From positions 1 through 36,052 of the forward strand of contig CAYMQR010000002.1 of assembly GCA_964392195.1 (NCBI GenBank): a stretch of 36,052 bases of DNA, read 5' to 3'. Position numbers and translations under genes: made by a program. Positions within the stretch are counted from its first letter, which is position 1; every line of letters begins with the position of its first letter. Origin of the DNA: an uncultured bacterium (GTDB taxonomy: Bacteria > JADJOY01). The notes below the pieces were generated by a model. That model was not told the origin of the DNA and searched no databases. It saw only the letters and a list, made by a program, of their open reading frames with translations. Shown in pieces: positions 5,075 to 35,210 of the stretch.

Positions 5075-8000
5075 CGCGCCTCCAGGTGGAAACGCACCGT
5101 GGTCTCTCGCGCGGTTGTATCGCGAGCGCGGACGTCGACGACATGGCGTCCGGGTGGCAGTACCAGGTCCGCCTCCCACACCTCGGCTCCGCGGGCGGGG
5201 ACGTAGCCACCCTGCTCGTCGAGGCGGACCTCGACCTGCTCCACGCCGAGGGCGTCCTCGGCGAAGCCGAGGACGTGGACCTCGCCCGCGGCGACCACCT
5301 CTCCCTCGCCGTGGGACGAGACGCGGATGCGAGGCGGGTCGAGAAGGTCGTGGCCGTCGGAGCGCAGCTCCGCGCCGAATCCGAGCGCCGCGGCGATGGT
5401 GGGCGCGATGTCCTCGTTGCCGACCGGCAAGTCGACCGCGAGGCGCGGATGGCCGGGCGGATTCACGATCAAGAGCGGCACGTGGTCCTGTTCGCCGTCG
5501 GCGCCGCCGTGCTCGCCGCGATAGGTGTGCCCCTCGACGGCGAAGTAGTAAGGCGCGCGCGCCTCGACGAACAGATCGCCGGAGCGCGCCGAGCCGGCGA
5601 GGCCCGCGAGGCGTTCGGCGAGACGATCGCGGCGGCCGGTCTCGACGAGTGTCCACGCGCCGTCCGATCCGCCACGCGCCCCGACCGGAACGAACGCGTG
5701 CACGGGCGCTCTCTCGGCCCCGGTCGCGCGCCCCAGCGCGTGGATCCTCTCGACGAATGGCTGCGCGGCGAGCGCCGCGGCCACCGGCTCGAGCGCGTCG
5801 AGCCCCGGTGCGGTGCCCCACCCCGCGCCCGGACGGCGCACGCTCACCAGCGCGGCTCCGCCGTTGTCGCCTCCCGTGAACACCAGGCCGACGTCGCGGC
5901 TCTGGACGTCGACGTCGCCGCCGCGGTCGAGCGGCACCTGGAGGCCGGCACGCGCGAGCGCGCGATAGACCTCGCGATCGGAGATCGCGTGGCGCGCGTC
6001 GTTCGCGACCTCGCGCTGACCGTGGTCAGCGCTGACCACGAGCAACGTCTCGGCCAGCAGACCGCGCCGATCGAGGGCGTCCGCGACCTCGCCGATCAGC
6101 GGGTCGATGTGACGCTCCAGGTACCCGGCCTGGCGGTCGCCCGCCGCGCCGGCCGGTCCGGGCCCCTCGAGGTGGGACCACGAGTCGAGACCCGGGAACC
6201 ACAGCCCCAGCAGCTCGGGTGGTCGGTCTCCCTCGATCCGCGCGATCGCCTTGGCGGCGGCGTCGGCGTCGATCTTGGGGAAGTCCTCGAGGAACCCGAA
6301 GAGCTTGCCGCCGAACAGCGCCTCGAGGAGGCCGGGGGACGCGACCTCGCCACCGCCCCGGCGGACGGGGTCGAACACCACCGCGGTCTCGACCTTGCGC
6401 CCGCGCGCCGCCTCGGCGCCAGCGAGCGCTTCGTAGATCGTCGGCACGTCCGGCGCGAGGTCCGTCTCGAGCAGCGCGAACCCCGGGAAGCTCCACGCGC
6501 GGCCGAGCCCGGGATCGTCGGCGGATCCGAACTTGAGGTACTCGCGGCTGCGCCGCGCGAGCGGCTCTCCGACGTCGAGCGTGCGATCGAACCACTCGTT
6601 GCCGGTGATCTCGTGGCGCCCCGGGAGCGCGCCGGTGAAGATCGTGGTGTGGTTCGGGATCGTGTCGGCGGGCAGTGCCGCGAGGCAGCGCTCGAAGCGC
6701 ACGTAGCCGCGCTCTTGCAGCAGCCCCGCGAGCCGCGGCAGGCGCCCGCCGTCGAGCGCCGCGTAGAGCGAGCGCGCGCGCAGCGCGTCGATGACCAGCA
6801 CCACCGCGCGCGCGCGCACGTCGAGGCGATCGCGCAGCGCCTTGAGCGCGGTGAGCGCCTCCGCCCCGGTCACCGGGTCGCGTGGACGGAAGCGCTCGCC
6901 GGCCTCGCCACCCGCCCCCAGGATCCCCAGCGCCCGCGCCAGCTCGGCGGCTCCGCGGTACCACGCGTGCGGATCCACGTCCGCGAAGTGCGCCGGCTCC
7001 CCCACGCCTCGCAGCCCGAGCGTCGCGTCGCGCGACGAGCGGCTCAGCAGGTCCTCGATCACGCCCGCCAGCTCGGCGCGGCTCACCGCCTCGTCGGGGT
7101 GGAAGCCGCCGTCGGCGAACCGCTCGAGGCCGCGCACTCCCTGCGCGAGGACGCGGCCGATGTCGGTGGCGTGGCGGTTCGCGGCGGCGTCGCCCGGCAG
7201 CGCCGCCGGCGGGCGCGGCGCGGGCACTGCCCTGGGCGGCTCGTAGGTCGGGGGACCGGGCAGCGGCGGCAGGCGATCCACCCGGAGCTCCTGGACGAGC
7301 AGTGCCGCCAGCTCGCCTCGCGACAGGCGATCGAGCAAGCCCAGGCGCCTCCCTTCGGGGCTGCGCGGCGCCGCGGCGCGCACGGTCGTGAGTCGCGCCA
7401 GCGCGGCGCCCAGCGCCGCCGCGTCGACGTCCGCTCCTCCCAGATCCCGGGCGCGAGAGAGAGCCTCGGCGGCGCGCGCCAGGTCGAGCCCGGCACGAAA
7501 GATCGCGCCGAGGCGTGCCAGCGACGCGCCGTCCTCGGCGCGCTGAGCGCGCAGTACCGTCCATTCGCGCGCCGCGAGCTCGAGACCGCCGGACGGCGGC
7601 GCATCGCGCGCGCTCGCGTCGGCGAGCACGGCGACGATCGCCCGCGCCACCGCGACTCGCTCGTCGCGGGTCCGGGCCTGGACCAGGGCGCGCCGCAGCA
7701 CCTCCAGCGCCGTGTCCACGCGACCCGCCGCGCTCGCGCGCGAGGCGGCGTCGAGGGCCTCGGCGAGGCTCGCGCCGAGGGACACGAGGCCCGCCGTCGG
7801 TGGCGCCGCCTGGCTCCCGAACGCCTTCACGAAGCCCGCGAGATCCCGCCAGTAGATGGAGAATCCGAAGTGCTCCATCTCGAGGCGCGCGTCCGCGGGC
7901 GGCCAGCCCTGCACCTGCATGCGGTAGATCGCGGCCATCGCCCCGGTGCGGTCCTCGCCGTTGCGGCAATGGAAGAACACCGGACGCGCCGCGGGATCGG

Positions 8001-21879: not shown

Positions 21880-24288
21880 ATGCCACCCAGCGCACGCTCG
21901 ATCGCCACTTCCCTCGCGCTCGCCGCCGTGTTCGCGCACACCGGCTGCTCCGGCGGCTCCGACGGCGGCGGAGGAGGAGGCCGCGGCGGCCTCACGATCC
22001 GCGACGAGGCGCTGCTGCCGGTGGGGGCGGCGGGCGCCGGGAGCTGGATCCTGCCAAACGGCCGCCGCATCGAGCCGGCGGGCACCATGGTGCACGTCGA
22101 CTCGCTGCCCCTCGGCGTGGTGCTGAGCGGCGACGGCCAGACACTGTTCGTGACCTCGAACGGCTCGGACGGTCGGCTCGCGGTGAGCGCGATCGACACT
22201 GTCGGCGGCACGGTGGTGTCCTCCCTCGAGCAGCGCGAGGGCCTCTACCTCGGCCTGGCGCTGGCGCCCGACGGCCGCACGCTCTACGCGGGCGGTGGCG
22301 GCGCCGAGCGCATCGTGGTCCTCGGCTGGGACGGCGCGGCGCTCACCGAGCAGCGCGCGTTCGCGGCCGGCGAGTTCCCCGCCGGCCTCGCGCTGAGCGC
22401 CGACGGCCGCACGCTGTTCGCGCTCACCCAGTCGTCGAACGGACTCGCCAGCTACGACGCCGCGAGCGGCGAACGGCTCGGCACGGTGCCGACCGGCGGC
22501 AACCCGTACGCGGTGGCGCTCTCGCCCGACGGCGGCGAGGCCTACGTGTCGTCGGAGAAGAGCGAGACGGTGGGCGTGTTCGACGTCCGCGATGCGGCTG
22601 CCATGCGCCAGGTCGCGACGATCCCGGTGCAGAAGAACCCGGAGGCGCTGGCGCTGTCCCGCGACGGCGCGCGGCTCTACGTGGCGAACGCCGACGAGGA
22701 CTCGATCTCGATCGTCGACGTCCGCAGGCGCAGGGTGGCGAGCACCCTCGACCTGCGCAGCATCAACGCGCAGGGCTACGGCACCGGCCCCAACGCGCTG
22801 GCGCTGTCGCCGGACGGCCAGCGGCTCTACGTGGCGCAGGCCGCGGACAACCGCGTGGCGGTCGTGGACCTCGGCGCCAGCGCGGTGATCGGCGCGATCC
22901 CCACCGCGTGGTACCCGACCGCGCTCGCGCTCTCGCCCGACGGACGGCGCCTCCACGTGGCGTGCGCCAAGGGCATCGGCGCGGGGCCCAACGACGTCGA
23001 GGGCAACGACCTCGTCAACCGCTCCACGATCCAGATCGTCGACGTGCCGAGCGACGCCGAGCTGAGCGCGGCCGCGCTGCGCATCGACGAGATGAACTCG
23101 CGCGCCGCCCGCCTCTACGACGTGGACGAGAGCCGCTTCTCGAACCCGATCCCGCTCACCCGTGGCGGCCCCACGCCGATCGAGCACGTCTTCCTGGTGG
23201 TGCGCGAGAACAAGACCTACGACGCGCTGCTCGGCGACTTCGCGGGCGGCAACGGCAAGCCGGAGAATTGCCTCTACTGTGGCGATCCCACGCCCAACCT
23301 GCACGCGCTGGTCGAGCGCTTCGCGAGCGCCGACAACTACTACACCAACGCCGAGACCTCGGATCAGGGGCACCAGCTCCTGACCTCGTCACTCTCCAAC
23401 ACCTACGTGGAGAAGGTGCGCTTCGCCGAGGAGCGGCCGCTGCCGTTCGAGGCCGAGATCTACCTCAACCCGGCGGTATGGCCGAAGCGCCAGTACCTCT
23501 TCCAGGCGCTGCTCGCGAAGGAGATCCCGTTCCGCATCTACGGCGAGGCGGTGGGCACGTGGATCGGCAAGCTCATCTTCGACGCGCGCTACGTCCACTC
23601 GAGCCGGATCGACCCGCCGTTCTTCTGGCAGTACAGCCGCGACATCGACAAGATCGAGGAGCGGATCGTCGGGTGGGAGCGAGATGGCGTTCCGCCGTTC
23701 GTCTACATGCTGCTGCCCGACGACCACACCCTCGGCTGCGATCCGCCCTACCCCACGCCGCGCTCGATGGTCGCCGACAACGACCTCGCCACCGGGCGGT
23801 TCGTCGATTGGCTCACCCACAGCAAGTACTGGGACACCTCGGTGGCGTTCATCGTCGAGGACGACCCGCAGGCCGGCATCGACCACGTCGACGCGCACCG
23901 CTCGATCTTCGTCGCGGTGTCACCCTACGCCCGCCGAGCCCACGTCTCCGGCGTGATCGCCCACGAAGGCAGCCTGCTCGCGACGATCGAGCACCTGCTC
24001 GGGCTCGACCCGCTCACGATCTACGACGAGCTCGCGCAGCCGATGTGGGACCTGTTCACGAGCACGCCCGACCGCGAGCCGTTCGAGGCGCGCTCACGGC
24101 GAGTGCCGGAGGAGATGTCGATGCCGGGCACCAACTGCGGCTTCGCCACGCGCACCATGAACTTCCTCGACCCCGACCAGAACCCCGGGCTCGACGCCGT
24201 GCTGCGCGCCCACGAGCGCGAGGCCAAGGCCGCCGCGAACGAGCCGTCGCGGCGGTGGCAGGAGGTCGTGGACGAGAGCGGGCGGTAG
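21880..24288 (+). CDS. bifunctional lipoprotein: YncE/YVTN beta-propeller + AcpA/phospholipase-C-type phosphoesterase
   Basis: ATG 21880 is preceded by GAGGA. The lipobox is FAHTGCSGG. Repeated segments such as ALSPDGxxLYVA and ALAPDGRTLYAG mark propeller blades. The phosphoesterase family signature is VFLVVRENKTYDALLG, PNLHALVERFASADNYY and IVEDDPQAGIDHVDAHRS. Confidence 0.85.
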   Translation: MPPSARSIATSLALAAVFAHTGCSGGSDGGGGGGRGGLTIRDEALLPVGAAGAGSWILPNGRRIEPAGTMVHVDSLPLGVVLSGDGQTLFVTSNGSDGRLAVSAIDTVGGTVVSSLEQREGLYLGLALAPDGRTLYAGGGGAERIVVLGWDGAALTEQRAFAAGEFPAGLALSADGRTLFALTQSSNGLASYDAASGERLGTVPTGGNPYAVALSPDGGEAYVSSEKSETVGVFDVRDAAAMRQVATIPVQKNPEALALSRDGARLYVANADEDSISIVDVRRRRVASTLDLRSINAQGYGTGPNALALSPDGQRLYVAQAADNRVAVVDLGASAVIGAIPTAWYPTALALSPDGRRLHVACAKGIGAGPNDVEGNDLVNRSTIQIVDVPSDAELSAAALRIDEMNSRAARLYDVDESRFSNPIPLTRGGPTPIEHVFLVVRENKTYDALLGDFAGGNGKPENCLYCGDPTPNLHALVERFASADNYYTNAETSDQGHQLLTSSLSNTYVEKVRFAEERPLPFEAEIYLNPAVWPKRQYLFQALLAKEIPFRIYGEAVGTWIGKLIFDARYVHSSRIDPPFFWQYSRDIDKIEERIVGWERDGVPPFVYMLLPDDHTLGCDPPYPTPRSMVADNDLATGRFVDWLTHSKYWDTSVAFIVEDDPQAGIDHVDAHRSIFVAVSPYARRAHVSGVIAHEGSLLATIEHLLGLDPLTIYDELAQPMWDLFTSTPDREPFEARSRRVPEEMSMPGTNCGFATRTMNFLDPDQNPGLDAVLRAHEREAKAAANEPSRRWQEVVDESGR

Positions 24289-24393: not shown

Positions 24394-25497
24394 TCAGGCC
24401 CGGCGCAGGACCTTGTCGAGGAACGAGCCGCCGGAGCGGGCCTTCGGGTTGATGCGTTCGAGCGCGTCGAGCGCCGCGGCGCGCACCCTCTCGTCCTCGC
24501 TCTTCACCAGCTTGCGGAGCGCGCCGAGCGCCGGCTTGGCCGCGGGGCCGATCAGGCCGAGGGTGCGCGCCGTGAGCGCGCGCACCGTGGGGTCGTCCTT
24601 CTTGAGGAGCGCGCACAGCGGATCGACCGCCGGGCGCGCGGCCCAGCCGACGCGGCCCAGAAACTCGATGCACGCCTCGCGCACCCGCGCGTCGGCGAGC
24701 CCCTCGATCAGCACCGGCACCGTGGCCGACGCCTCGGCGCCGATCGTGACCATCGCGCCCGCGGCGATGTAGCGCAGGCTCGGGTCCGTCAGCATCGTGC
24801 GCAGCTTCGGCACCGCGGGCTTGGCGGCCGGTCCGATGCCGGCGAGGGCGCGCGCCGCGGCGCCGCGGAAGCCCTCGACGTCGAGCGAGTCGACGAGCAC
24901 CGGCACCGCGTCCACCGCCTGCGGGCCGATGCCGCCGAGCGCCAGGAAGATCGACGGTTTGGAGCGCGCGTCCGCGGTCTTCGCCATGGCGATCAGGGTC
25001 GGCAACGCCTCGATCGCCCGCGGGCCGAGGCGGCCAAGCGACTGCACCGCCGCGTCGCGCACGGTGAGGTCCGCGTCCTGGAGCGCGGCGAGCAACAGCT
25101 TGATGCAGTCCTTGAACTCGAGGCCGACGCGGCCGAGCGCCTCGACCGCCGTGGCGCGCACCATCACGTCGGTGCCGGAGAGCGCCTTCAGCAGTGCGTC
25201 GTTCGAGATCTTCGCCACCGCGTAGCCGGCCTCCGAGCGCACCGCGGCGTGGCGGTGCTTCATGGCGGTGTGCAGGGCGGGGAGCGCGGTGCGCGCAGGT
25301 GAGCCGATCGCCGCGAGCGCGTCGATCGAGCCGGTGACGATGTCCTCGTTGTCGTCGGCGAGCGAGTCGACCAGGTCGGGGACCGCGGCCATGCCGATCT
25401 TGACCAGCGCGTCGATCGCGGAGGTGCGGACGTGGGGGTCGCGGTTCTTGAGCGCCTCGATCCAGACCACGGTCGACTTGCCTTGGTACACCGCCAT
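24394..25497 (-). CDS. HEAT-repeat (PBS-lyase-type) cytoplasmic protein
   Basis: ATG 25497 is preceded by GGGAG. Repeats of about 30 aa occur throughout, such as DPxVRxxAxxALGxIGxxAxxAVPxL. No signal peptide is present. Confidence 0.8.
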   Translation of the reverse strand: MAVYQGKSTVVWIEALKNRDPHVRTSAIDALVKIGMAAVPDLVDSLADDNEDIVTGSIDALAAIGSPARTALPALHTAMKHRHAAVRSEAGYAVAKISNDALLKALSGTDVMVRATAVEALGRVGLEFKDCIKLLLAALQDADLTVRDAAVQSLGRLGPRAIEALPTLIAMAKTADARSKPSIFLALGGIGPQAVDAVPVLVDSLDVEGFRGAAARALAGIGPAAKPAVPKLRTMLTDPSLRYIAAGAMVTIGAEASATVPVLIEGLADARVREACIEFLGRVGWAARPAVDPLCALLKKDDPTVRALTARTLGLIGPAAKPALGALRKLVKSEDERVRAAALDALERINPKARSGGSFLDKVLRRA

Positions 25498-26886: not shown

Positions 26887-28053
26887 GTGAACGCACCGAT
26901 CACGCCCTCGTCGCTCGATCCTGATCTGGAACGGGACCTGAGCATCCTGCGCCTCGGCACACCGGGCACGCCCGCGCCGCGGCGGCGCCGCTTCCCGTGG
27001 GGCAAGCTCGTCACGCTGGTGGTGCTGGCGGCGGCGATCGGCGGTGGCGTCACCTACTGGCGCGTCACCAAGCCGATCGAGGTGTCGCTGGTGTCGATCG
27101 CACCACGCGACCTCGGCCTGCCCTCCACGCTGCTCACGGCGTCGGGCTACATCGTCGCCAAGCGCCAGATCACGGTGAGCAGCAAGACCCAGGGCAAGAT
27201 CGTCGAGATGCCGGTGACGATCGCCACCGAGCTCGAGCAGGGCGCGCTGATCGCGCGCGTCCAGGACGACGAGCAGCGCGCGCAGGTCAAGGTGGCCGAG
27301 GCCGAGCTCGCGCAGGCCGAGCTCGACGTGAGGCGCGCCCGCGAGCTCAGCCGCGACCGCATCGCCTCGCAAGCCGACCTCGACAAGGCCGAGACCAACG
27401 TGCTGGTGGCGCGCGCGCGCCTCGAGCTCGCGCGCGAGGCGCTCGCCGACACGCTGGTGACCGCGCCCATCGCCGGCACCGTGATCCGCAAGATCCGCGA
27501 CGTCGGCGAGTTCCTCACGCTGGGCGTCACCGCCGAGGGAGATCCCGGCTCGTCGGTGGTGACGTTGGCCGACATGTCGGCGATCGACGTCGAGCTCGAG
27601 ATCAACGAGACCGAGATCACCAAGGTGAAGATGGGCGGCCCGGCGATCGTGACGCCGGAGGCGATCCCCGAGCGCCGCTACCTCGCCGACGTATTCGAGA
27701 TCGGCGCGATGGCCGACCGCAAGAAGTCGGTGGTGCCGGTGAAGGCGCGGCTGCGCGAGCCGAGCCACGACCTGCGTCCCGACATGTCGGCCAAGGTCAC
27801 GTTCCTCGTAGAGGAGCCGAGGGGCGCGATCGTGGTGAAGCCCGCGCTGCCCACCTCCGCCGTGGTCCAGCGCGGCGGGCGCAGCGTGGTGCTGCTGGTC
27901 GAGAACGATCGTGCGGTGGAGAAGCCCATCGAGACCGAGCCCGCCGACACCGGCTTCGTGGTGGTGAAGAGCGGCGCCACCGAGGGCACCTTCGTGATCG
28001 ACCAGCCGCCGCCCGAGCTCGCCGCCGGCCAGCGGGTGCACGTCAAGTCGTGA
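26887..28053 (+). CDS. efflux/export periplasmic adaptor (HlyD/MacA family)
   Basis: There is an N-terminal TM (LVTLVVLAAAIGGGV), a lipoyl-like segment, a coiled-coil hairpin (AEAELAQAELDVRRAREL...LELAREAL) and then ...VTAPIAGTV. GTG 26887 is the only in-frame start before the TM. No clear Shine-Dalgarno is visible. Confidence 0.75.
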   Translation: MNAPITPSSLDPDLERDLSILRLGTPGTPAPRRRRFPWGKLVTLVVLAAAIGGGVTYWRVTKPIEVSLVSIAPRDLGLPSTLLTASGYIVAKRQITVSSKTQGKIVEMPVTIATELEQGALIARVQDDEQRAQVKVAEAELAQAELDVRRARELSRDRIASQADLDKAETNVLVARARLELAREALADTLVTAPIAGTVIRKIRDVGEFLTLGVTAEGDPGSSVVTLADMSAIDVELEINETEITKVKMGGPAIVTPEAIPERRYLADVFEIGAMADRKKSVVPVKARLREPSHDLRPDMSAKVTFLVEEPRGAIVVKPALPTSAVVQRGGRSVVLLVENDRAVEKPIETEPADTGFVVVKSGATEGTFVIDQPPPELAAGQRVHVKS

Positions 28054-28772
28054 GCGACGGGCGCGCCAACGCCGCGATCGCAGCCGGCGCACCGCTGGTC
28101 GAGATCGCGGGGCTCGGGAAGACGTACCACCGCGGCGCCACCGACGTGCCGGTGCTCGTGGACGTCAACCTGACGATCCGCGCCGGCGAGTTCGTGGCGC
28201 TGATGGGGCCGTCGGGCTCGGGGAAGTCGACGCTCCTCAACCTGATCGCCGGCATCGACCGGCCCACCACCGGCTCGCTCAAGATCGCCGGGCGCGACAT
28301 CCAGGGGCTGACCGAGCGCGAGCTCGATCGGTGGCGGAACCGCTCGATCGGCTTCGTGTTCCAGTTCTACAACCTGATGCCGGTGCTCACGGCGCTCGAG
28401 AACGTCGAGCTGCCGCTCACGCTCGTCGACATGACGCGCGACGAGCGGCTGGCGCGCGCCGCGGCGGCGCTGCGGATCGTGGGACTCGGCCACCGCATCA
28501 GCCACCGTCCGTCCGAGCTCTCGGGCGGCGAGCAGCAGCGGGTCGCGATCGCGCGCGCGCTCGTCACCGACCCGCTCCTGGTGCTCGCCGACGAGCCCAC
28601 CGGCGACCTCGACGCCAGGAGCGGCACCGAGATCCTCGGCATCATGCGTCTCCTCAACCGCACCGCGGGCAAGACCTTCGTGATGGTCACCCACGACCCG
28701 CGCGCCGCCGCCACCGCGGACCGGCTCGTCCACCTCGACAAGGGCCGGCTCACCGACGAGCCCACCCCGTGA
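28050..28772 (+). CDS. ABC transporter ATP-binding protein (MacB/LolD-type)
   Basis: GTG 28050 overlaps the upstream stop (GTGA). Walker A is GPSGSGKST, the signature is LSGGEQQR and Walker B is LLVLADEPTGDLD. Confidence 0.9.
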   Translation: MSDGRANAAIAAGAPLVEIAGLGKTYHRGATDVPVLVDVNLTIRAGEFVALMGPSGSGKSTLLNLIAGIDRPTTGSLKIAGRDIQGLTERELDRWRNRSIGFVFQFYNLMPVLTALENVELPLTLVDMTRDERLARAAAALRIVGLGHRISHRPSELSGGEQQRVAIARALVTDPLLVLADEPTGDLDARSGTEILGIMRLLNRTAGKTFVMVTHDPRAAATADRLVHLDKGRLTDEPTP

Positions 28773-29920
28773 ACGCGCTCAAGCTCCTGGTCCGCGGGCT
28801 GGCGCGGAACCCGCGCCGCACGCTGCTCACGTTCCTCGGCCTGGTGGTGTCGTTCTTCGTCTACACCTCGCTCGCCAGCATCCTGTTCACGCTGACGCAG
28901 ATGATCGAGCGCACCGGCAGCTCGACCACGCTCTTCCTGCGGCCCAAGTTCGGGATCCGCTTCTGGCGCGCCGAGATCCCGCTCACCTATCTGCCGAGGA
29001 TCCGCGCCCTGCCCGGCGTGGTCGCGCTCACGCCCTACGACTTCTTCCTCGGCGAGGGGAAGAAGAAGGGCGACTTCGACGTGGCGATCGGAGTCGATCC
29101 CGCCACCATCGCCCAGGTTCGCGATCTGAAGGGCGCGTCGAGCGCCGAGCTCGCCACCTTCGCCGCCGAGCGCAGCGGCGCCCTGGTGGGCGAGCGGATG
29201 CTCGAGAACAACCACTGGAGGATCGGCGGCGAGGTCACCATGCGGAACCCGCTCAAGGGGCAGAACCTGCCGGTGCGGATCCGCGGCAGCCTCGATCGGG
29301 ACGGCGACTTCGGCGACGTGCTGCTGGTCCACAACGACTACCTGCAGGACGCCAACGGGCGCACCGGCAAGACCGTGTTCGTCATCGTGAAGGTGGCGCG
29401 CCCCGACCTCGCGACGAGCGTGGCGCGCACCATCGACGAGGGCTTCAAGAACTTCACGGTGCCCACCGAGACCATCACCGAGAAGGCGTTCACCGACACC
29501 GTGATCGGCGGGCTCTCCGACACGCTGCGCGCGCTCACGGTGATCGGCTACCTGACCCTCGGTGTGACCATGCTGGTGGTGGCGAACACCGTGGCGATGA
29601 GCGTGCGCGAGCGCACCACCGAGATCGGCACGATGCGCGCGCTCGGCTTCAGCTCGCGGCGGGTGCTCGGGCTGGTGGTGGGCGAGGCGTCGCTGGTGTC
29701 GCTGATCGGCGGGCTGGGCGGCGCGATGCTGGCGTGGGCGGTGTTCCACTTCCAGTGGATCGAGCTGCCGGAGGAGGTGGGGCTCGACATCCGCACCTCG
29801 TGGCAGGTGGTGGCGCGCGCCGCCGCGCTGGCGCTGCCGATCGGCGCGCTCGCCGGGCTCAAGCCCGCGTGGGACGCCTCGCGCATGGCGATCACCGATG
29901 CGCTGCGCCACGCGGACTGA
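28769..29920 (+). CDS. ABC transporter permease, FtsX/MacB-type (permease 1)
   Basis: GTG 28769 overlaps the upstream stop (GTGA). The N-terminus is LARNPRRTLLTFLGLVV, followed by a large periplasmic loop and a C-terminal 3-TM FtsX-like region ending ...ITDALRHAD. Confidence 0.85.
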   Translation: MNALKLLVRGLARNPRRTLLTFLGLVVSFFVYTSLASILFTLTQMIERTGSSTTLFLRPKFGIRFWRAEIPLTYLPRIRALPGVVALTPYDFFLGEGKKKGDFDVAIGVDPATIAQVRDLKGASSAELATFAAERSGALVGERMLENNHWRIGGEVTMRNPLKGQNLPVRIRGSLDRDGDFGDVLLVHNDYLQDANGRTGKTVFVIVKVARPDLATSVARTIDEGFKNFTVPTETITEKAFTDTVIGGLSDTLRALTVIGYLTLGVTMLVVANTVAMSVRERTTEIGTMRALGFSSRRVLGLVVGEASLVSLIGGLGGAMLAWAVFHFQWIELPEEVGLDIRTSWQVVARAAALALPIGALAGLKPAWDASRMAITDALRHAD

Positions 29921-29930
29921 GGGAATCGCG

Positions 29931-30107
29931 ATGGCCCTGCCCCTCGCTTACTCGTGGCGAAACGTCATGGCGCGCAAGCGGTCCACGCGCGGTTTCCACG
30001 GGGGGCTGTACCAGCCCCCCGCCCCTCCGAGAGCGCGGTCTCGGAGGGGCCCCACCCCCGAGCCGCTCGCTGCGCTCGCGCGGTGCCGCTGGCACCGGCC
30101 GAGATAA
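29931..30107 (+). pseudogene. displaced original 5' end of the permease-2 gene (19 codons) fused to repeat-element sequence and ending at TAA
   Basis: ATG 29931 has a GAGGGA Shine-Dalgarno in the normal coupled position after permease 1. The first 58 nt match 30129-30186 at 54 of 58 positions. After codon 19 the reading frame runs into hairpin repeats and stops at 30105-30107. Confidence 0.6.
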
Positions 30108-30128
30108 GACACCGTCGGAGCACCAAGC
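29989..30128. repeat. 140-bp stem-loop element inserted in the 5' end of the permease-2 gene, flanked by 58-nt direct repeats of the gene start
   Basis: It contains GGGGGGCTG-tac-CAGCCCCCC (30000-30020), the same stem as 33879-33900. It also contains CCCCTCCGAGA-gcgcgg-TCTCGGAGGGG (30022-30049) and GGTGCC-gct-GGCACC. Its left edge cGCGGTTTCCA matches 33848-33857. It ends with TAA, then GGAG, then GTG. Confidence 0.65.
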
Positions 30129-31286
30129 GTGACCCTGCCCCTCGCCTACTCGTGGCGCAACGTCATGGCGCGCAAGCGGTCCACGCTGGTGGTGGTGTTC
30201 GGCGTGGCGGCGTCGGTGCTGGTGTTCGTGGTGATGGCGGCGACGGCCAGCGGGATCTCGCGGGTGTCGGTGTCGACGGGCGATCCGCGGAACCTCCTGG
30301 TGATGTCGAAGGGCGCGCCGTCGGCGGAGGGATCGAGCCTGTCGCGCGAGGTCGCGAACATCGTGCGCTACCACCCGGGCATCGCTCGCGACGCCCACGG
30401 CGAGCCGCTCGCGAGCCCCGAGCTGATCCTGCAGCGGCCGATCCCGCGCAAGGGCGAGCCGCTCGGCTCGATGGTGGGCGCGCGCTACACGCCGATCCGC
30501 GGCGTGACGCCGAAGGTGTTCGAGGTCCACACCGGCGCACGCCTCATCGCCGGGCGTTTCCCGCGCGAGCCCGGCGAAGTGATGATCGGCGCTCTCATGC
30601 CCGCCAAGCTCGCCGGAGTGGGACTCGGCGACGAGCTCGCGTTCGGCCGCCAGCTCCACCGCGTGGTCGGCGTGTTCGCCGCGGCCGGTCAGGTGTTCGA
30701 GGGCGAGGTGTGGGCCGAGCTCGACGACCTCATGAGCGAGAACCACGTGAGCGAGGTGTCGCTGGTGGTGGCGCGGGTCGCGGAGCCGCGGCGGGTCGCC
30801 GAGCTCGGCAAGCAGCTCGAGGACGCCCGCAACATCTCGGTCGACGCCAAGCCCGAGCCCAAGTACTACGAGAACGTCGCGCGCTCGGCGGTGGGGTTCC
30901 GCTTCCTGGGCAACCTGATCGGCACGATCATGGGGCTCGGAGCCGTGTTCGCCGGCGCCAACACCATGTACGCGGCGATGAGCAAGCGGGTTCGCGAGAT
31001 GGGGACGCTGCGCGCGCTCGGCTTCGGCGCGTGGTCGGTGGCCGCGGCGCTGCTGATCGAGAGTACGCTGGTAGGGATCCTCGGCGGCGCGCTCGGCATC
31101 GCCGCGTCGTTCGCCTTCGACGGCTACGGCATGGACCTCTTCGAGCTGTCGTTTCGCCTCGACGTGACCCGCTCGGCGGTGGCCGGCGGCGCGGCGCTCG
31201 CGCTCGCCTCCGGCATCCTCGGCGGGCTGCTCCCCGCGCGCGCCGCCGCGCGCCTCGAGATCGTCGACGCCCTGCGACACGTCTGA
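30129..31286 (+). CDS. ABC transporter permease, FtsX/MacB-type (permease 2)
   Basis: GTG 30129 has GGAG 8 nt upstream. The N-terminus is LPLAYSWRNVMARKRSTLVVVFGVAASV, and the C-terminal FtsX region ends ...IVDALRHV. ATG 30162 is an alternative start. Confidence 0.8.
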   Translation: MTLPLAYSWRNVMARKRSTLVVVFGVAASVLVFVVMAATASGISRVSVSTGDPRNLLVMSKGAPSAEGSSLSREVANIVRYHPGIARDAHGEPLASPELILQRPIPRKGEPLGSMVGARYTPIRGVTPKVFEVHTGARLIAGRFPREPGEVMIGALMPAKLAGVGLGDELAFGRQLHRVVGVFAAAGQVFEGEVWAELDDLMSENHVSEVSLVVARVAEPRRVAELGKQLEDARNISVDAKPEPKYYENVARSAVGFRFLGNLIGTIMGLGAVFAGANTMYAAMSKRVREMGTLRALGFGAWSVAAALLIESTLVGILGGALGIAASFAFDGYGMDLFELSFRLDVTRSAVAGGAALALASGILGGLLPARAAARLEIVDALRHV

Positions 31287-32287: not shown

Positions 32288-32408
32288 GCGTCGCAGCGAC
32301 GCCACGAGCGAAGCGCGGAGCCCGCCGCTTCGTCGGCGGGGAGCGTCTCGACAGGCGGCGCGGCAGAGCCGCGCCCTCCAGGCGGGCGGGGGGCTTGAAA
32401 AGCCCCCC
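32288..32408. repeat. array of four GC stem-loops (H1-H4) filling the convergent intergenic region
   Basis: H1 is GCGTCGC-a-GCGACGC (32288-32302). H2 is CCCGCCG-cttcgt-CGGCGGG (32321-32340). H3 is GCGCGGC-aga-GCCGCGC (32358-32374). H4 is GGGGGGCTT-gaa-AAGCCCCCC (32388-32408). Related copies of each recur at 33999-34245. Confidence 0.7.
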
Positions 32409-32415
32409 GAGAAAC

Positions 32416-33817: not shown

Positions 33818-33975
33818 GGCCTGGAAACCTCGGCCGCGCGATGTGCCGCGGTTTCCAGGCCTGACAGCGGTCCGGGGCGGGGGGCTGGCCTCAGCCCCCC
33901 CCCGGCTTTCCCACCTCGTCAATCCTAAGTCCCAGACGCAGCGACCAACGGTCTCCTGACCGTTGCGGTCGCTGC
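33818..33975. repeat. three strong stem-loops downstream of the HU gene (terminator candidates / repeat family members)
   Basis: GGCCTGGAAACC-N20-GGTTTCCAGGCC has a 12-bp stem (33818-33861). GGGGGGCTG-gcct-CAGCCCCCC spans 33879-33900. GCAGCGACCAACGGTC-tcct-GACCGTTGcgGTCGCTGC forms 16 bp with a 2-nt bulge (33938-33975). Confidence 0.65.
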
Positions 33976-33998
33976 GCGGCGCCGCGCGACGCCTGGAG

Positions 33999-34245
33999 CC
34001 CGTCGCTTCGTCGGCGGGAAGCCTCTCGTTCCCTTGCGCACGACGAAGCGTGTGCCTCCACGCGGGCGGGGGGCTCGAGAAGCCGCGCGGTCAGCAGACC
34101 GCGCCTCCCTGGATCCCGGATCGCGGAGCGAAGGGACTCGCCGAGGTGCGCGTCGCAGCGCGACGCCGCGAGCGAGAGCGAGCGCCTCGGGGGTGGGACC
34201 CGCGCGGATTCACTCCGCGCGGGCGGGGGGCTTGAAAAGCCCCCC
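33999..34245. repeat. second, reshuffled array of the H1-H4 stem-loop repeats
   Basis: The H2 copy is CCCGTCG-cttcgt-CGGCGGG (33999-34018). A degenerate H4 is GGGGGGCTCGAGAAGCCGCGC (34068-34088). The H3-like copy is GCGCGGTC-agca-GACCGCGC (34085-34104). H1 is GCGTCGC-agc-GCGACGC (34150-34166). An exact H4 is GGGGGGCTT-gaa-AAGCCCCCC (34225-34245). Confidence 0.7.
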
Positions 34246-34253
34246 GCAGCAAC

Positions 34254-35210
34254 TCAGTCGCACCCGGCCTGCAGGTCGGCGCAGTCGTGACCGTCGAGGT
34301 AGGCCCCCGACCGGAAGTCGGTGTCGAGGATCGCCGCCACGTCCTGGCCGCACACGGTCCGCGTCAGCAGCCGGCTCGTCGCGGTGGCGTCACCCTCGAG
34401 CCAGCGATCGAACCACGCGTGCGTGTACCAGTGGACGAGGTCGTGCTTGTCGGGTGTCCACCCGGAGCCGAACCAGCTATGGGTGGAGGCGGCGAACACG
34501 ACCTCCATGCTCTCGGTGCGGTTGGCGCGCCACCACGAGTACGCAGTCTTCTTCGCCTCGGGATCGGTGACCACGCAGTCGTCGGACGCCTGGCCCATCG
34601 CGGGCACCCGGGGCGTGCGGTACTCGGTGCCCGTGAACCCACACGTCGGCGAGCCGTCGTCGCCGGTCTCGCGCACCGCGAGGTTGTCCCACGCCACCAC
34701 GGCCTTCACGCGCGAGTCGAGGTCCTGGGTCCTGGCGAGCGAACGCGCACCGAGCGACCAGCCGGCGATCCCGACGCGCGTGATGTCGGTGTCGGCGCGG
34801 TACGGATTGTCCGCCGAGCCGAGGAAGTCGAGCGCGCCGCGCAGCGCGAGATCGTAGCTGTCGGGGCTGCCGCCGTTGGACGGCCGCACCACGATCGCCA
34901 CATAGCCGGAGCCCGCGAGACGTTGCGCGGCCCAGTCCACCGAGTCGGTGTCCGAGAGCCCGGCGGGAAGAATGCCGATCGCTGGATACGGGCGAGTCGG
35001 GTAGGCGGTGGGATCGGGTGCGAAGATGCGGGCGCCGAGCGGCAGCCCGGTACCGAGCTCCGCGACGCTCACGTCCTGGAACCGGATCGTGCCCTTCGAC
35101 GGGTCACAGGGCTCGGGTTCCACCGGTGGACACTCCGCGCCCATCGTCGCCAAGGCGCAGAGCGCCACCCCCACCAGCTTCCGTGCCGCGCGCGCCGCGC
35201 TCGATCGCAT
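34254..35210 (-). CDS. secreted alpha/beta hydrolase (dienelactone-hydrolase/cutinase-like)
   Basis: ATG 35210 gives MRSSAARAARKLVGVALCALATMGA, a signal peptide. The nucleophile elbow is GIAGWSLGA. 35255 is an alternative start. Confidence 0.7.
   Translation of the reverse strand: MRSSAARAARKLVGVALCALATMGAECPPVEPEPCDPSKGTIRFQDVSVAELGTGLPLGARIFAPDPTAYPTRPYPAIGILPAGLSDTDSVDWAAQRLAGSGYVAIVVRPSNGGSPDSYDLALRGALDFLGSADNPYRADTDITRVGIAGWSLGARSLARTQDLDSRVKAVVAWDNLAVRETGDDGSPTCGFTGTEYRTPRVPAMGQASDDCVVTDPEAKKTAYSWWRANRTESMEVVFAASTHSWFGSGWTPDKHDLVHWYTHAWFDRWLEGDATATSRLLTRTVCGQDVAAILDTDFRSGAYLDGHDCADLQAGCD

What the first reader, a model, noticed from the sequence alone, without database searches (positions are those of the whole stretch)
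29931..30186. 58-nt duplication of a permease gene start flanking a 140-bp stem-loop element: integration scar or miniature element that rebuilds the gene's 5' end
Seen in sequence: 29931-29988 and 30129-30186 are direct repeats with 54 of 58 identical positions. The mismatches are at repeat positions 1, 4, 18 and 30, and the last 28 nt are identical.
- Copy 1 keeps the native context, with a GAGGGA Shine-Dalgarno and ATG 10 nt after the permease-1 stop. It runs into the insert and terminates at TAA 30105.
- Copy 2 starts with GTG behind an insert-supplied GGAG and continues into the full FtsX permease.
- The mismatches at positions 18 and 30 are synonymous (GCT/GCC and CGA/CGC).
- The 140-bp insert consists of strong hairpins. 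One of them (GGGGGGCTG/CAGCCCCCC) and the left edge (GCGGTTTCCA) recur downstream of the HU gene at 33848-33900.

Inference: 58 nt is far too long for a transposase target-site duplication. The 5'-biased mismatch pattern resembles attL/attR pairs made by site-specific integration of an element that carries a replacement gene 5' end. In that case most of the element has since been lost. The alternative is a REP/MITE-like insertion with local duplication.
Basis: partly seen in the sequence, partly recalled or inferred. Interest (0 to 1): 0.65.

Follow-up and report, generated by a model that had tools for sequence, protein, structure and literature searches.

The report
Repeat insertion that duplicated gene start
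A 140-base copy of a hairpin-rich repeat that is scattered through the genomes of a group of uncultured Polyangia-like bacteria sits inside the start of a transporter gene, and the first 58 bases of that gene were duplicated around it so the gene stayed intact; this is a clean, conserved case of a rare and poorly understood kind of DNA insertion, not the scar of a lost integrated element.

Summary
Window 29931-29988 and 30129-30186 are a 54/58 direct repeat around a 140-bp insert.

- **What the insert is.** It is a complete member, not a remnant, of a multicopy three-hairpin repeat I call E. The profile gave 164 hits, 132 of them unique copies, in 778 kb sampled from related MAGs. It has no Rfam, plasmid or phage match.
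- **Empty site.** A relative (L114) has permease-1 TGA, 10 nt, then the permease-2 start. More distant relatives have a 0-1 nt spacer.
- **Conservation.** The closest relative found, long-read MAG JADJOY, carries the same arrangement at the same gene, amplified to T-E-T-E-T. So it is neither an assembly artefact nor recent.
- **Other loci.** Unrelated loci show the same pattern at gene ends, with different duplicated sequences of 15, 73 and 73 nt. This rules out a common att site.
- **Best reading.** This is an "insertion with long target duplication" of a REP/BIME-like element. It was tolerated because the duplication rebuilt the conserved N-terminus.
- **Relic start.** It heads a 58-codon ORF through E that stops 21 nt before the new GTG. 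I infer, but have not shown, that this keeps the two permeases translationally linked.
- **Open question.** The insertion enzymology is unknown.

This is a new variant of a known kind, of moderate interest.

The parts
26887..28053 (+). Periplasmic adaptor (HlyD / RND_mfp type), first gene of the operon.
   Evidence: Pfam HlyD_D23 and HlyD_3. NCBIfam TIGR01730 at 148.8 bits, above the cutoff.
28050..28772 (+). ABC ATPase of the LolD/MacB/DevA type. Its GTG start overlaps the adaptor stop (GTGA).
   Evidence: NCBIfam best hits are LolD, DevA and the MacB ATPase domain, all below equivalog cutoffs. Sequence.
28769..29920 (+). Permease 1 (FtsX plus MacB_PCD). Its start overlaps the ATPase stop (GTGA). 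Stop TGA at 29918-29920.
   Evidence: Pfam. Sequences.
29921..29930 (+). Native 10-nt spacer carrying the native Shine-Dalgarno (GAGGGA, 29919-29924). This is the ancestral permease-1/permease-2 junction.
   Evidence: L114 has TGA, 10 nt, then GTG. L117 has TGA followed directly by ATG, and L118 has a 1-nt gap by the called gene coordinates.
29931..29988 (+). T1, the upstream copy of the duplicated target. It is the relic start of permease 2 (ATG GCC ...).
   Evidence: 54/58 identical to T2. It keeps the ancestral state at 3 of the 4 mismatch positions judged against JADJOY.
29931..30107 (+). 58-codon bridging ORF: the relic start, then hairpins 3, 2 and 1 of the insert, then TAA.
   Evidence: JADJOY has the same frame and a stop at the same alignment column (TGA). 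Openness alone is not unusual.
29989..30128 (-). Full-length copy of the three-hairpin repeat E, in reverse of the family reference orientation.
- Tail: 29989-29998.
- Hairpin 3: 29999-30021.
- Hairpin 2: 30021-30050.
- Conserved C-rich linker CCCACCCCCGAG: 30051-30062.
- Hairpin 1: 30081-30097.
- Left extension: 30098-30128. It supplies the TAA stop and the GGAG (30117-30120) used by permease 2.
   Evidence: Alignment to other copies. nhmmer hit 30103-29997 covers profile positions 3-109, E = 7e-16. Folds. Covariation.
30129..30186 (+). T2, the downstream copy of the duplicated target. It is the first 58 nt of the working permease-2 gene (GTG ACC ...).
   Evidence: The N-terminus M-x-LPLxYSWRN is conserved in homologues down to 55% identity.
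30129..31286 (+). Permease 2 (FtsX plus MacB_PCD, 385 aa).
   Evidence: Pfam. 257 homologues at E <= 1e-20.
34149..34247 (+). Another full E copy in the window. Its hairpin 3 lies 7 nt before the stop of the converging PETase-like gene, which ends at 34254.
32290..32415 (+). Related 'type-B' repeat that shares only hairpin 3 and the tail with E. It lies between the converging hydrolase and DsbA genes. A second, degenerate copy is at 33968-34090.

Best explanation
A complete ~140-bp copy of a high-copy, three-hairpin, non-coding repeat (E) was inserted into the 5' end of the second FtsX-type permease gene of an adaptor-ATPase-permease-permease exporter operon. E is REP/BIME-like and lineage-specific to a clade of uncultured Polyangia-like bacteria. 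The first 58 bp of the gene were duplicated on both sides of it, giving T-E-T. This is an 'insertion with long target duplication'.

Shown:
- The insert is a family member.
- The uninterrupted junction exists in relatives.
- The T-E-T is inherited, because it is also present in the closest relative found.
- Other family members at other gene ends carry their own long duplications.

Inferred:
1. The duplication is the reason this insertion survived. The permease N-terminus (LPLAYSWRN...) is conserved and could not be replaced. Where the N-terminus is dispensable, as in the ATPase of L002, an insert simply supplied a new start.
2. The relic start with its native Shine-Dalgarno still initiates. 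Its 58-codon ORF carries ribosomes through the hairpins and releases them 21 nt before an insert-supplied GGAG and GTG. This would keep the permease-2 start unfolded and tied to translation of permease 1 (the RNA-unfolding type of coupling). The single TAA also prevents an in-frame permease with a doubled N-terminus, because T1 plus E is 198 nt, or 66 codons.
3. The insertion chemistry is not a fixed-stagger transposase. The most likely route is a break- or replication-associated copy-in, such as template switching at the stalling hairpins or a variable stagger. The outcomes of that process are then filtered by selection, so that only duplications that preserve the gene survive at gene ends.

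Once made, the two T copies allow unequal crossing-over, as seen in JADJOY with two units.
For: Family membership:
- The insert aligns with window copies at 34149-34247 and 32378-32411 and with two tandem copies at the same junction in L001.
- An exact scan for the hairpin-3 pattern in one genome per species hit at least 108 stretches, almost all in 5 MAGs.
- The profile finds 164 hits and 132 unique copies in 778 kb, and the window copy is full length.

Structure under selection:
- Hairpin 2 has 8 pairs with compensatory changes. Of all cells, 96.3% are paired, against 79.5% in shuffles and 46-60% when the partners are slid. The covariation score is 0.419 against 0.117.

Empty sites:
- L114 has TGA, 10 nt, then GTG. 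L117 and L118 have a 0-1 nt spacer.
- T1 and T2 both align to the single L114 copy.

Not an artefact, and old:
- JADJOY010000016 (L062) has three identical 50-nt T copies at 6488, 6661 and 6834, with two E copies between them at the orthologous gene.
- It shares the orientation, the junction between E and the start codon, the ORF frame and the column of the stop codon (TAA in the window, TGA in JADJOY). The T1-E junction differs by a 24-nt in-frame indel.
- Permease 1 is 92.7% identical at the nucleotide level and its 4-fold sites are 18.5% diverged. The E core differs at only 3 of about 100 positions, and two of those form a compensatory pair.

Recurrence elsewhere with different T sequences:
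- L016: 73 nt, the 3' end of a gene that looks like a GMC oxidoreductase from its C-terminal sequence (my reading, not tested).
- L012: 73 nt, a gene 3' end plus downstream sequence, arranged T-E-T-E-T.
- L021: 15 nt spanning a stop codon.
- L002 ATPase|permease-1: the overlapping NTGA is duplicated as ATGA...TTGA, and E is exactly spanned by an ORF.
- L048 against L020: a 177-bp extra E body flanked by identical 33-nt copies.
- Permuted flank pairs give no common substring of 18 nt or more.

Contrast case: the L002 ATPase N-terminus was replaced rather than duplicated.

Literature:
- Insertion with long, variable target duplication without mobility genes, followed by amplification through the repeats, is a described class (PMC2853133).
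- RNA-unfolding coupling works at spacings of tens of nt, whereas termination-reinitiation fails by about 20 nt (PMC12548453 and PMC10666635).
Against: - More than 90% of E copies have no flanking direct repeat of 10 nt or more. Long duplication is therefore not an obligatory signature of E insertion, and I cannot show that duplication and insertion were one event.
- No enzyme, terminal inverted repeat or autonomous partner was identified.
- The bridging-ORF idea is not statistically supported by openness alone. In shuffles of the insert, 57% stay open and 11% stop in the last 45 nt.
- A 21-nt gap is too long for efficient termination-reinitiation (PMC10666635).
- The low divergence between T1 and T2 (4/58) and the zero divergence in JADJOY could reflect gene conversion rather than constraint.
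- Whether the window and JADJOY structures come from one event or two is inferred, not proven.
- No expression data exist.
Confidence: 0.7

Rival explanations
1. E is a non-autonomous element (MITE) moved by a transposase that makes long, variable staggered cuts, as IS1549 and IS1634 do. On this reading the 58 bp is an ordinary target-site duplication of that enzyme.
For: - IS1549 and IS1634 give direct repeats of 8-514 bp with no known mechanism (PMC2266710).
- The duplications seen with E are variable: 15, 33?, 50-59, 58, 73 and 73 nt.
- The family is multicopy and its presence varies between orthologous sites.
Against: - The E copies whose ends are defined by T-E-T have no terminal inverted repeats (read).
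- More than 90% of copies lack any flanking repeat of 10 nt or more, although the copies themselves are 80-95% alike.
- No transposase was seen next to E ends, but this was not searched systematically.
Confidence: 0.12
2. Homology-facilitated illegitimate recombination. DNA from a relative that already carried E just upstream of permease 2 (the L001-like state) was taken up. It recombined homologously inside permease 2 on one side and joined illegitimately at +58 of the resident gene on the other side, giving resident T1, then donor E, then donor T2.
For: - Relatives with E directly upstream of the start and no T1 exist (L001).
- The leader between E and the start codon is similar in the window, JADJOY and L001.
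- The 'insertion with long target duplication' cases are mostly in naturally competent species (PMC2853133).
- There is imperfect similarity at the junction: GCGGTCCACGC | GCGGTTTCCACGG.
Against: - It does not explain the independent T-E-T cases at gene 3' ends.
- JADJOY shares the structure, so the event would have to predate the split anyway.
- The similar segments at the junction lie side by side rather than merged, which is not how a microhomology join looks.
- Competence of these organisms is unknown.
Confidence: 0.08
3. attL/attR scar. A site-specific integrative element carrying a replacement 5' end integrated here and was later almost completely deleted.
For: - The flanking direct repeats are of att-like length.
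- The downstream copy rebuilds the gene.
Against: - The insert is a complete unit of a family with about 130 unique copies in the sample, not a remnant.
- There is no integrase.
- Other T-E-T sites have unrelated repeats.
- The mismatch bias is not significant (P = 0.065).
- The same 140-bp unit is conserved in JADJOY.
Confidence: 0.02
4. Assembly artefact: a collapsed or expanded repeat, or a chimaera of two strains, one with E and one without.
For: - The window is a metagenome-type contig.
- E is a multicopy repeat, and many contigs of the related MAGs end inside E (hits at contig ends).
Against: - The two copies differ at 4 positions, so this is not a graph loop.
- The T1-E junction shares no long k-mer with any alternative path.
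- A long-read MAG has the same architecture at the same gene.
Confidence: 0.02
5. The whole T1-E-T2 block is primarily a regulatory leader, for example an attenuator that sets the ratio of permease 2 to permease 1 or makes permease 2 conditional. On this reading it is kept by selection for that function and is not merely a tolerated selfish insertion.
For: - The E core is far more conserved than 4-fold sites between the window and JADJOY, and one difference is a compensatory pair.
- The uORF frame and the stop position are conserved despite a 24-nt indel.
- Hairpin 3 is phased about 6 nt after stop codons genome-wide, which points to a function at the level of translation or RNA.
Against: - L114 and all more distant homologues do without it.
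- L001 has E but no T1, and L002 has an unrelated spacer.
- There is no promoter or terminator consensus and no Rfam family.
- The conservation could come from gene conversion among copies.
Confidence: 0.06

Closest known systems
Insertion with long target duplication (Nobusato et al. 2000, cited from memory; Furuta et al. 2010, PMC2853133)
   Same: - The inserted DNA is absent from a related genome.
- It is flanked by direct repeats of more than 30 bp that both align to a single-copy target.
- The insert carries no mobility gene.
- Repeat length differs from case to case.
- The repeats can later mediate amplification.
   Different: - The described cases carry kilobase-sized restriction-modification genes. 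Here the cargo is a 140-bp non-coding structured repeat from a multicopy family.
- The event recurs with the same family at several gene ends.
REP / BIME elements of proteobacteria
   Same: - Short GC-rich palindromic modules at high copy in extragenic DNA.
- Mosaic combination with other motifs, and clustering.
- Position just after stop codons.
- Selection on the stem rather than the sequence.
   Different: - No GTAG or CGTC head.
- Arrays are head-to-tail rather than alternating.
- The unit is about 110-165 nt with three different hairpins.
- REPs are not known to carry long target duplications.
- A link to a RAYT transposase was not tested.
MITEs (e.g. Correia/NEMIS, RUP, Nezha)
   Same: - Small, non-coding and multicopy.
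- Presence or absence varies between relatives.
- They can sit inside operons and supply expression signals.
   Different: - No terminal inverted repeats.
- No fixed short target duplication.
MIRUs of mycobacteria (Supply et al. 1997, cited from memory)
   Same: Repeat units inside operons that are spanned by small ORFs touching the stop and start of the flanking genes. This was read as preserving translational coupling. Copy number varies between strains (1 unit in the window, 2 in JADJOY).
   Different: - MIRUs are 40-100-bp tandem units without strong hairpins.
- They do not duplicate the start of the downstream gene.
- Most E copies lie at gene 3' ends, not inside operons.
IS1549 / IS1634 (long, variable direct repeats on insertion; PMC2266710)
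   Same: The target duplications run to tens or hundreds of bp, vary in length, and have an unexplained mechanism.
   Different: Those are 1.5-2-kb insertion sequences with a DDE transposase and inverted-repeat ends. E has neither, and most E copies show no duplication.

Membership tests
Insertion with long target duplication | The inserted segment is absent from the orthologous site of a related genome. | tested here: met
   L114 has TGA, 10 nt, then the permease-2 start. L117 and L118 have a 0-1 nt spacer.
Insertion with long target duplication | The flanking direct repeats are longer than 30 bp and both align to the single-copy target. | tested here: met
   The repeat is 58 bp at 54/58 identity. 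Both copies align to the one L114 copy at about 82% and 86% (read from the alignment).
Insertion with long target duplication | There is no transposase or integrase in or beside the insert. | tested here: met
   The insert is 140 bp. Its only ORF is the read-through from T1.
Insertion with long target duplication | The duplication length varies between events. | tested here: met
   15, 50-59, 58, 73 and 73 nt, and possibly 33.
MITE | Terminal inverted repeats. | tested here: not met
   The ends defined by T-E-T in the window, L016, L012 and L062 show no inverted-repeat match (sequences).
MITE | A short target-site duplication of fixed length. | tested here: not met
   The longest common flank substring is 10 nt or more in only 8.6% of copies, against 2.3% in permuted pairs. 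Lengths vary.
MITE | A parent IS with the same ends. | not tested
   This needs whole genomes. Only 8-kb blocks around the hits were held.
REP/BIME | A 20-40-nt GC-rich imperfect palindrome at high copy in extragenic DNA. | tested here: met
   Hairpin 3 is 23-26 nt. There were at least 108 exact-pattern stretches, and 112 unique copies were analysed.
REP/BIME | A conserved GTAG or CGTC tetranucleotide head (PMC3733652). | tested here: not met
   The consensus GGGCGGGGGGCTKGAAMAGCCCCCCGAGAAAC has neither.
REP/BIME | An associated RAYT (IS200-like) gene flanked by REPs. | not tested
   No genome-wide protein search was possible.
REP/BIME | Alternating orientation of the palindromes within clusters. 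| tested here: not met
   All 22 close pairs are head-to-tail (++ or --).
Site-specific integration scar (attL/attR) | The same att core at every insertion of the element. | tested here: not met
   The flanking repeats at the window/L062, L012, L016 and L021 loci are unrelated.
Site-specific integration scar (attL/attR) | An integrase gene or a remnant of one between the repeats. | tested here: not met
   The insert is a 140-bp full-length non-coding repeat unit.
MIRU-like operon spacer with a bridging ORF | A small ORF through the repeat that overlaps or abuts the stop and start of the flanking genes. | tested here: inconclusive
   - Window: the ORF starts 10 nt after the stop and ends 21 nt before the start.
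- L002 ATPase|permease-1: exact ATGA...TTGA overlaps.
- L002 permease-1|permease-2: a called 56-aa ORF ends at the ATG.
- Open frames are common in this GC-rich DNA.
Known RNA families (Rfam 15) | A match to a curated covariance model. | tested here: not met
   No hit at gathering thresholds across the whole window, and none at E <= 1 for 29900-30200.

The most novel reading that the evidence does not exclude
E may be a previously undescribed kind of small mobile element whose insertion is tied to gene ends. Three observations point that way. Hairpin 3 sits exactly 6 nt after stop codons in 20 of 112 unique copies. The element also splits NTGA stop/start overlaps. Its insertion makes target duplications of very variable length, from 3 to 73 nt. 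A mechanism that would fit is template switching at a replication or transcription-translation block caused by its own hairpins, or an RNA-mediated route that would also explain the members truncated at the hairpin-3 end in arrays. On this reading, hosts then keep the copies as translated 'bridges' inside operons.
Probability: 0.15. Interest if true: 0.75.

Novelty: new variant of a known kind. Interest (0 to 1): 0.45.

Why it matters
- **A second kind of cargo for an unexplained insertion mode.** 'Insertion with long target duplication' has so far been described mainly for restriction-modification genes. Here it also applies to a small structured repeat family, and it recurs, so these genomes could be used to work out the mechanism.
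- **A concrete route past purifying selection.** A selfish or regulatory hairpin element can enter a translationally coupled operon that encodes a heteromeric transporter without killing it. The target duplication rebuilds the conserved N-terminus, and the relic start becomes a leader ORF across the element.
- **A practical point for annotation.** Gene callers will mis-start or split such genes, and E copies break short-read assemblies. Many contigs of the related MAGs end inside E.

Tried and rejected
- An exact-protein look-up of permease 2 in public assemblies found nothing on record.
- A metagenome scan for close relatives of permease 2 gave only 3 loci. One of them, L114, supplied the empty site.
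- Rfam at gathering and at permissive thresholds gave nothing.
- Consensus scans for sigma-70 promoters and intrinsic terminators across 29700-30400 gave nothing.
- blastn of the insert against the plasmid and phage collections gave no match.
- I looked for short fixed target-site duplications around 81 full copies. There is only a weak excess of 8-9-nt matches over permuted flanks, not a usable signature.
- I looked for terminal inverted repeats and GTAG/CGTC heads and found none.
- I considered that the 5' clustering of the mismatches marks an att crossover. It is not significant (P = 0.065).
- I considered that the window and JADJOY structures are independent hits on a hotspot. I now favour one ancestral event, because orientation, the junction between E and the start codon, the frame and the stop column are all shared. 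I cannot exclude two events.
- I tested whether the bridging ORF is statistically unusual. It is not.
- I searched the sampled loci for further pairs of filled and empty sites. Only L048/L020 turned up.
Full report
**1. The observation**

The sequence is as described. Window 29931-29988 (T1) and 30129-30186 (T2) are direct repeats, identical at 54 of 58 positions. The mismatches are at positions 1, 4, 18 and 30. Between them lie 140 bp (29989-30128).

T1 begins with ATG, 10 nt after the TGA of an FtsX/MacB_PCD permease gene (28769-29920) and behind GAGGGA. Its frame runs into the insert and stops at TAA 30105-30107. T2 begins with GTG, 8 nt after a GGAG that lies in the insert. It continues into a second FtsX/MacB_PCD permease of 385 aa.

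The operon is periplasmic adaptor, LolD/MacB-type ATPase, permease 1, permease 2. Upstream of the permease-1/permease-2 junction the genes overlap by GTGA.

A 54/58 match within 200 nt cannot be chance, at roughly 1e-16 by my arithmetic. The other close direct repeats of comparable length in the window are 60-73% identical modules inside repeat proteins. The insert folds into three strong hairpins.

**2. What the insert is**

Read on the opposite strand, the insert aligns with other intergenic sequences of the window: 34149-34247, and the hairpin module at 32378-32411. It also aligns with two tandem copies that occupy the same permease-1/permease-2 junction in a relative, L001 (GCA_964447125.1, permease 2 86% identical).

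Nearly all of them came from five MAGs:
- three 'binchicken' uncultured bacteria;
- a 'Deltaproteobacteria bacterium' from activated sludge (JADJOY);
- STL-UNK1.

There were single or few hits in a 'Polyangia bacterium' and, oddly, in a MAG labelled Acidobacteriota.

A profile built from 61 copies finds 164 hits, of which 132 are unique copies, in the 778 kb I held. The window insert covers profile positions 3-109 of 109.

The unit, which I call E, reads in its reference orientation as follows:
- a variable left extension;
- hairpin 1;
- a conserved linker, CGAGCG.AGCGAG..G.CTCGGGGGTGGG;
- hairpin 2;
- hairpin 3;
- a 6-10-nt tail (GAGAAAC-like).

Hairpin 2 is hypervariable in sequence but always paired. 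Eight of its pairs show compensatory changes with up to four pair types. Of all cells, 96.3% are paired, against 79.5% in column shuffles and 46-60% when partners are slid by 1-3 columns. Hairpin 3 is invariant partly because I selected on it.

E has no Rfam match, no promoter or terminator consensus and no match in the plasmid or phage collections.

So the insert is a complete copy of a lineage-specific, structure-constrained, multicopy repeat. It is not the stump of something larger.

**3. The empty site and the age of the structure**

A metagenome contig encoding a permease 2 that is 85% identical (L114) has the uninterrupted junction: GAC TGA, gcgccgcgcc, GTG CCG CTA CCC .... Homologues at about 57% identity have a spacer of 0-1 nt. 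The tight junction is therefore ancestral, and T1 sits exactly where the gene used to start.

The closest relative I found is JADJOY010000016 (L062). There permease 1 is 92.7% identical at the nucleotide level and its 4-fold sites are 18.5% diverged. This relative has the same thing at the same gene, but amplified. Three 100% identical 50-nt copies span -15 to +35 of the gene, at L062 6488, 6661 and 6834, with two E copies between them.

JADJOY contig names (tig...) indicate a long-read assembly. This, together with the four mismatches between T1 and T2, rules out an assembly loop.

The window and JADJOY share several features:
- the orientation of E;
- the junction between the left extension of E and the start codon;
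- the reading frame of the ORF that starts at the relic ATG;
- the alignment column of its stop (TAA in the window, TGA in JADJOY).

The T1-E junction differs by a 24-nt in-frame indel. The leader peptides are nearly the same:
- window: MALPLAYSWRNVMARKRSTRGFHGGLYQPPAPPRARSRRGPTPEPLAALARCRWHRPR
- JADJOY: MALPLAYSWRNVPLPGGLFQPPAPPRARSRRGPTPEPLAALARCRWHRPI

The E core differs at 3 of about 100 positions, and two of those are a compensatory pair in hairpin 2. That is far less than the 18.5% seen at 4-fold sites.

I read this as one insertion in a common ancestor, kept since, with later unequal crossing-over in JADJOY. Two independent hits cannot be excluded.

Other relatives solved the junction differently:
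- L001 has a palindrome plus two E copies and no T1.
- L002 has an unrelated 160-bp spacer spanned by a called 56-aa ORF that ends at the permease-2 ATG.

**4. Is the long duplication a property of this family?**

I compared the left and right flanks of every copy. Long flanking direct repeats occur at only a few places, all at gene ends and all with different sequences:
- the permease-2 start (window and L062);
- L016: 73 nt at 86-87% identity, the last codons and stop of a gene that looks like a GMC oxidoreductase from its C-terminal sequence (my reading, not tested), with a 165-nt E between;
- L012: 73 nt at 92%, the last 24 nt of a gene plus its stop and 46 nt, arranged T-E-T-E-T;
- L021: 15 nt spanning a stop codon and the first arm of a terminator-like hairpin.

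At the ATPase|permease-1 junction of L002 the ancestral NTGA overlap is present on both sides of an E copy (ATGA ... TTGA). E is spanned exactly by an ORF from that ATG to that TGA.

One pair of filled and empty sites turned up, L048 against L020. It shows a 177-bp extra E body flanked by two identical 33-nt copies of hairpin 3 plus tail. Those copies share a derived base, while the two E bodies are only about 83% alike.

Against this, more than 90% of copies have no flanking repeat of 10 nt or more. There is only a weak excess of 8-9-nt matches over permuted flank pairs. No terminal inverted repeats are visible at the ends defined by T-E-T.

A useful contrast is the ATPase of L002. There an insert landed in the first codons, and the gene simply acquired a new, unrelated N-terminus and start. 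Permease 2, by contrast, has a conserved N-terminus, M-x-LPLxYSWRN, down to 55% identity.

**5. How it most likely works**

Shown:
- E is a repeat-family member.
- The junction was once tight.
- The T-E-T is inherited.
- The family recurrently carries long duplications of variable length at gene ends.

Inferred:
- (a) The duplication is what made this insertion viable, because it rebuilt a conserved N-terminus. Across the family one sees whichever outcome leaves both neighbours intact: a 3-4-nt duplication of NTGA, 15 nt across a stop, or 50-73 nt across a gene end. In intergenic DNA nothing recognisable remains. That pattern fits an insertion process with variable outcomes filtered by selection better than a transposase with a fixed stagger. 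Template switching or break repair at the stalling hairpins are candidates, but no step of this was tested.
- (b) The relic ATG keeps its native Shine-Dalgarno. Its 58-codon ORF passes through hairpins 3, 2 and 1 and ends 21 nt before the GTG, with the insert-supplied GGAG in between. Because T1 plus E is 198 nt (66 codons), the single TAA is also what prevents an in-frame permease with a doubled N-terminus. It is the only stop in any frame of E on this strand.
- The literature says termination-reinitiation is nearly lost by about 20 nt (PMC10666635), whereas coupling by RNA unfolding works at spacings of tens of nt (PMC12548453). So I propose the unfolding type.
- The minimum-free-energy fold of 29915-30170 pairs the GUG region with the 3' end of T1 across the base of E, which translation of the leader ORF would open.

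These are inferences. Openness of the ORF is not unusual in this GC-rich DNA: 57% of shuffles stay open.

**6. Comparison with what is known**

The architecture meets every criterion used for 'insertion with long target duplication' (PMC2853133):
- it is absent in a relative;
- the repeats are longer than 30 bp and align to a single target;
- there is no mobility gene;
- the length is variable;
- later amplification through the repeats is seen.

What differs is the cargo, a 140-bp structured repeat from a multicopy family rather than restriction-modification genes.

E resembles REP/BIME elements in being palindromic, extragenic, mosaic, clustered and close to stop codons. It lacks the GTAG/CGTC head, and its arrays are head-to-tail. 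It fails the MITE tests for inverted-repeat ends and a fixed short duplication. IS1549 and IS1634 show that long variable duplications can be transposase-made (PMC2266710), so a MITE of such an enzyme remains a rival. The bridging ORF recalls mycobacterial MIRUs (from memory). The att-scar reading fails on every defining feature.

**7. Verdict**

The finding is real and well explained as an old, conserved insertion of a REP/BIME-like repeat with a 58-bp target duplication that rebuilt the gene start. It is a new variant of a known but mechanistically unexplained class. Interest is moderate at 0.45.

The more novel possibility is that E is a distinct kind of element targeted to gene ends. The phasing of hairpin 3 six nt after stop codons and the variable duplications hint at this, but I put it at about 15%.

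Noticed in passing
L006-L113 and window 34221-34256: Hairpin 3 of the repeat is phased relative to stop codons. Of 112 unique copies, 66 have a gene reading into hairpin 3. In 35 of those the stop lies 5-10 nt from the stem base, and in 20 it lies exactly 6 nt away (stops: TGA 49, TAG 15, TAA 2). The other side of the element shows no fixed spacing (13-198 nt). This suggests either targeting to gene 3' ends or a function at translation termination or the RNA 3' end.
   Followed up: partly
L048:770-1330 against L020:1040-1420: These are orthologous loci in two MAGs. L048 has an extra 177-bp E body flanked by two identical 33-nt copies of hairpin 3 plus tail. The copies share a derived base, while the two E bodies are only about 83% alike. 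It looks like another insertion with target duplication, this time into an existing E.
   Followed up: partly
L001, L024, L030, L039, L046, L082, L083, L086, L090, L101, L107-L109 and others: Head-to-tail tandem arrays of E with a period of about 160 nt are common: 22 close pairs, all in the same orientation. The upstream member often has hairpin 3 cut off after AGCCC. L082 and L109 have three units with 98-100% identical inter-unit segments.
   Followed up: partly
L002:6145-11280: In this relative most internal junctions of the adaptor-ATPase-permease-permease-hydrolase cluster carry an insert: 330 bp including a partial E, an N run and poly-C/poly-G hairpins; a full E; an unrelated 160-bp spacer; and another full E. 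The ATPase acquired a new N-terminus. In the window only the permease-1/permease-2 junction is occupied.
   Followed up: partly
L016:972-1244; L012:5545-5764; L021:469-604: Three more T-E-T structures at gene 3' ends, with duplications of 73, 73 and 15 nt whose sequences are unrelated to one another.
   Followed up: yes
window 32290-32415 and 33968-34090: A second repeat type ('type-B') shares only hairpin 3 and the tail with E. Its body contains GGAGCCCGCCGCTTCGTCGGCGGG and CTCCAGG. A similar unit fills most of the 185-nt spacer after permease 1 in JADJOY (L062 about 6300-6487). It follows a relic ATGGCC that looks like an even older permease-2 start.
   Followed up: partly
L018, L031, L033, L096 (JADJOY); L001:544-585, L028, L030, L073 (CAYUSL/CAYVDO): Two other small repeat families are present. 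One is a GTAG-headed, REP-like palindrome, CGTAGCGACGGGGGTTCCATCCCCCGTCGC. The other is a CTAGCCCTGAAG...CTTCAGGGCTAG palindrome that overlaps TAG stop codons.
   Followed up: no
L051, L102, L113 (CAVSQV010000003 and CAVSQV010000007): Good E-like copies occur in long contigs of a MAG labelled Acidobacteriota. Either the label is wrong or the family crosses phyla. There were also single pattern hits in MAGs labelled Gordonia and Thermoanaerobaculia.
   Followed up: no
window 29980-29988 with 30126-30134: The two non-synonymous differences of T2 (ATGGCC changed to GTGACC) make GCGUGACC complementary to GGUC(C)ACGC at the end of T1, and to the same sequence at the end of T2. The minimum-free-energy fold pairs them across the base of E and sequesters the GUG start. 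In this GC-rich sequence that could be chance.
   Followed up: partly
window 22250-23000 and 24400-25400: Internal direct repeats of 88-135 nt and 93-99 nt lie inside a beta-propeller (YNCE-like) gene and a repeat protein that looks HEAT-like (my reading, not tested) on the opposite strand. These are ordinary protein repeats and are unrelated to the finding.
   Followed up: no
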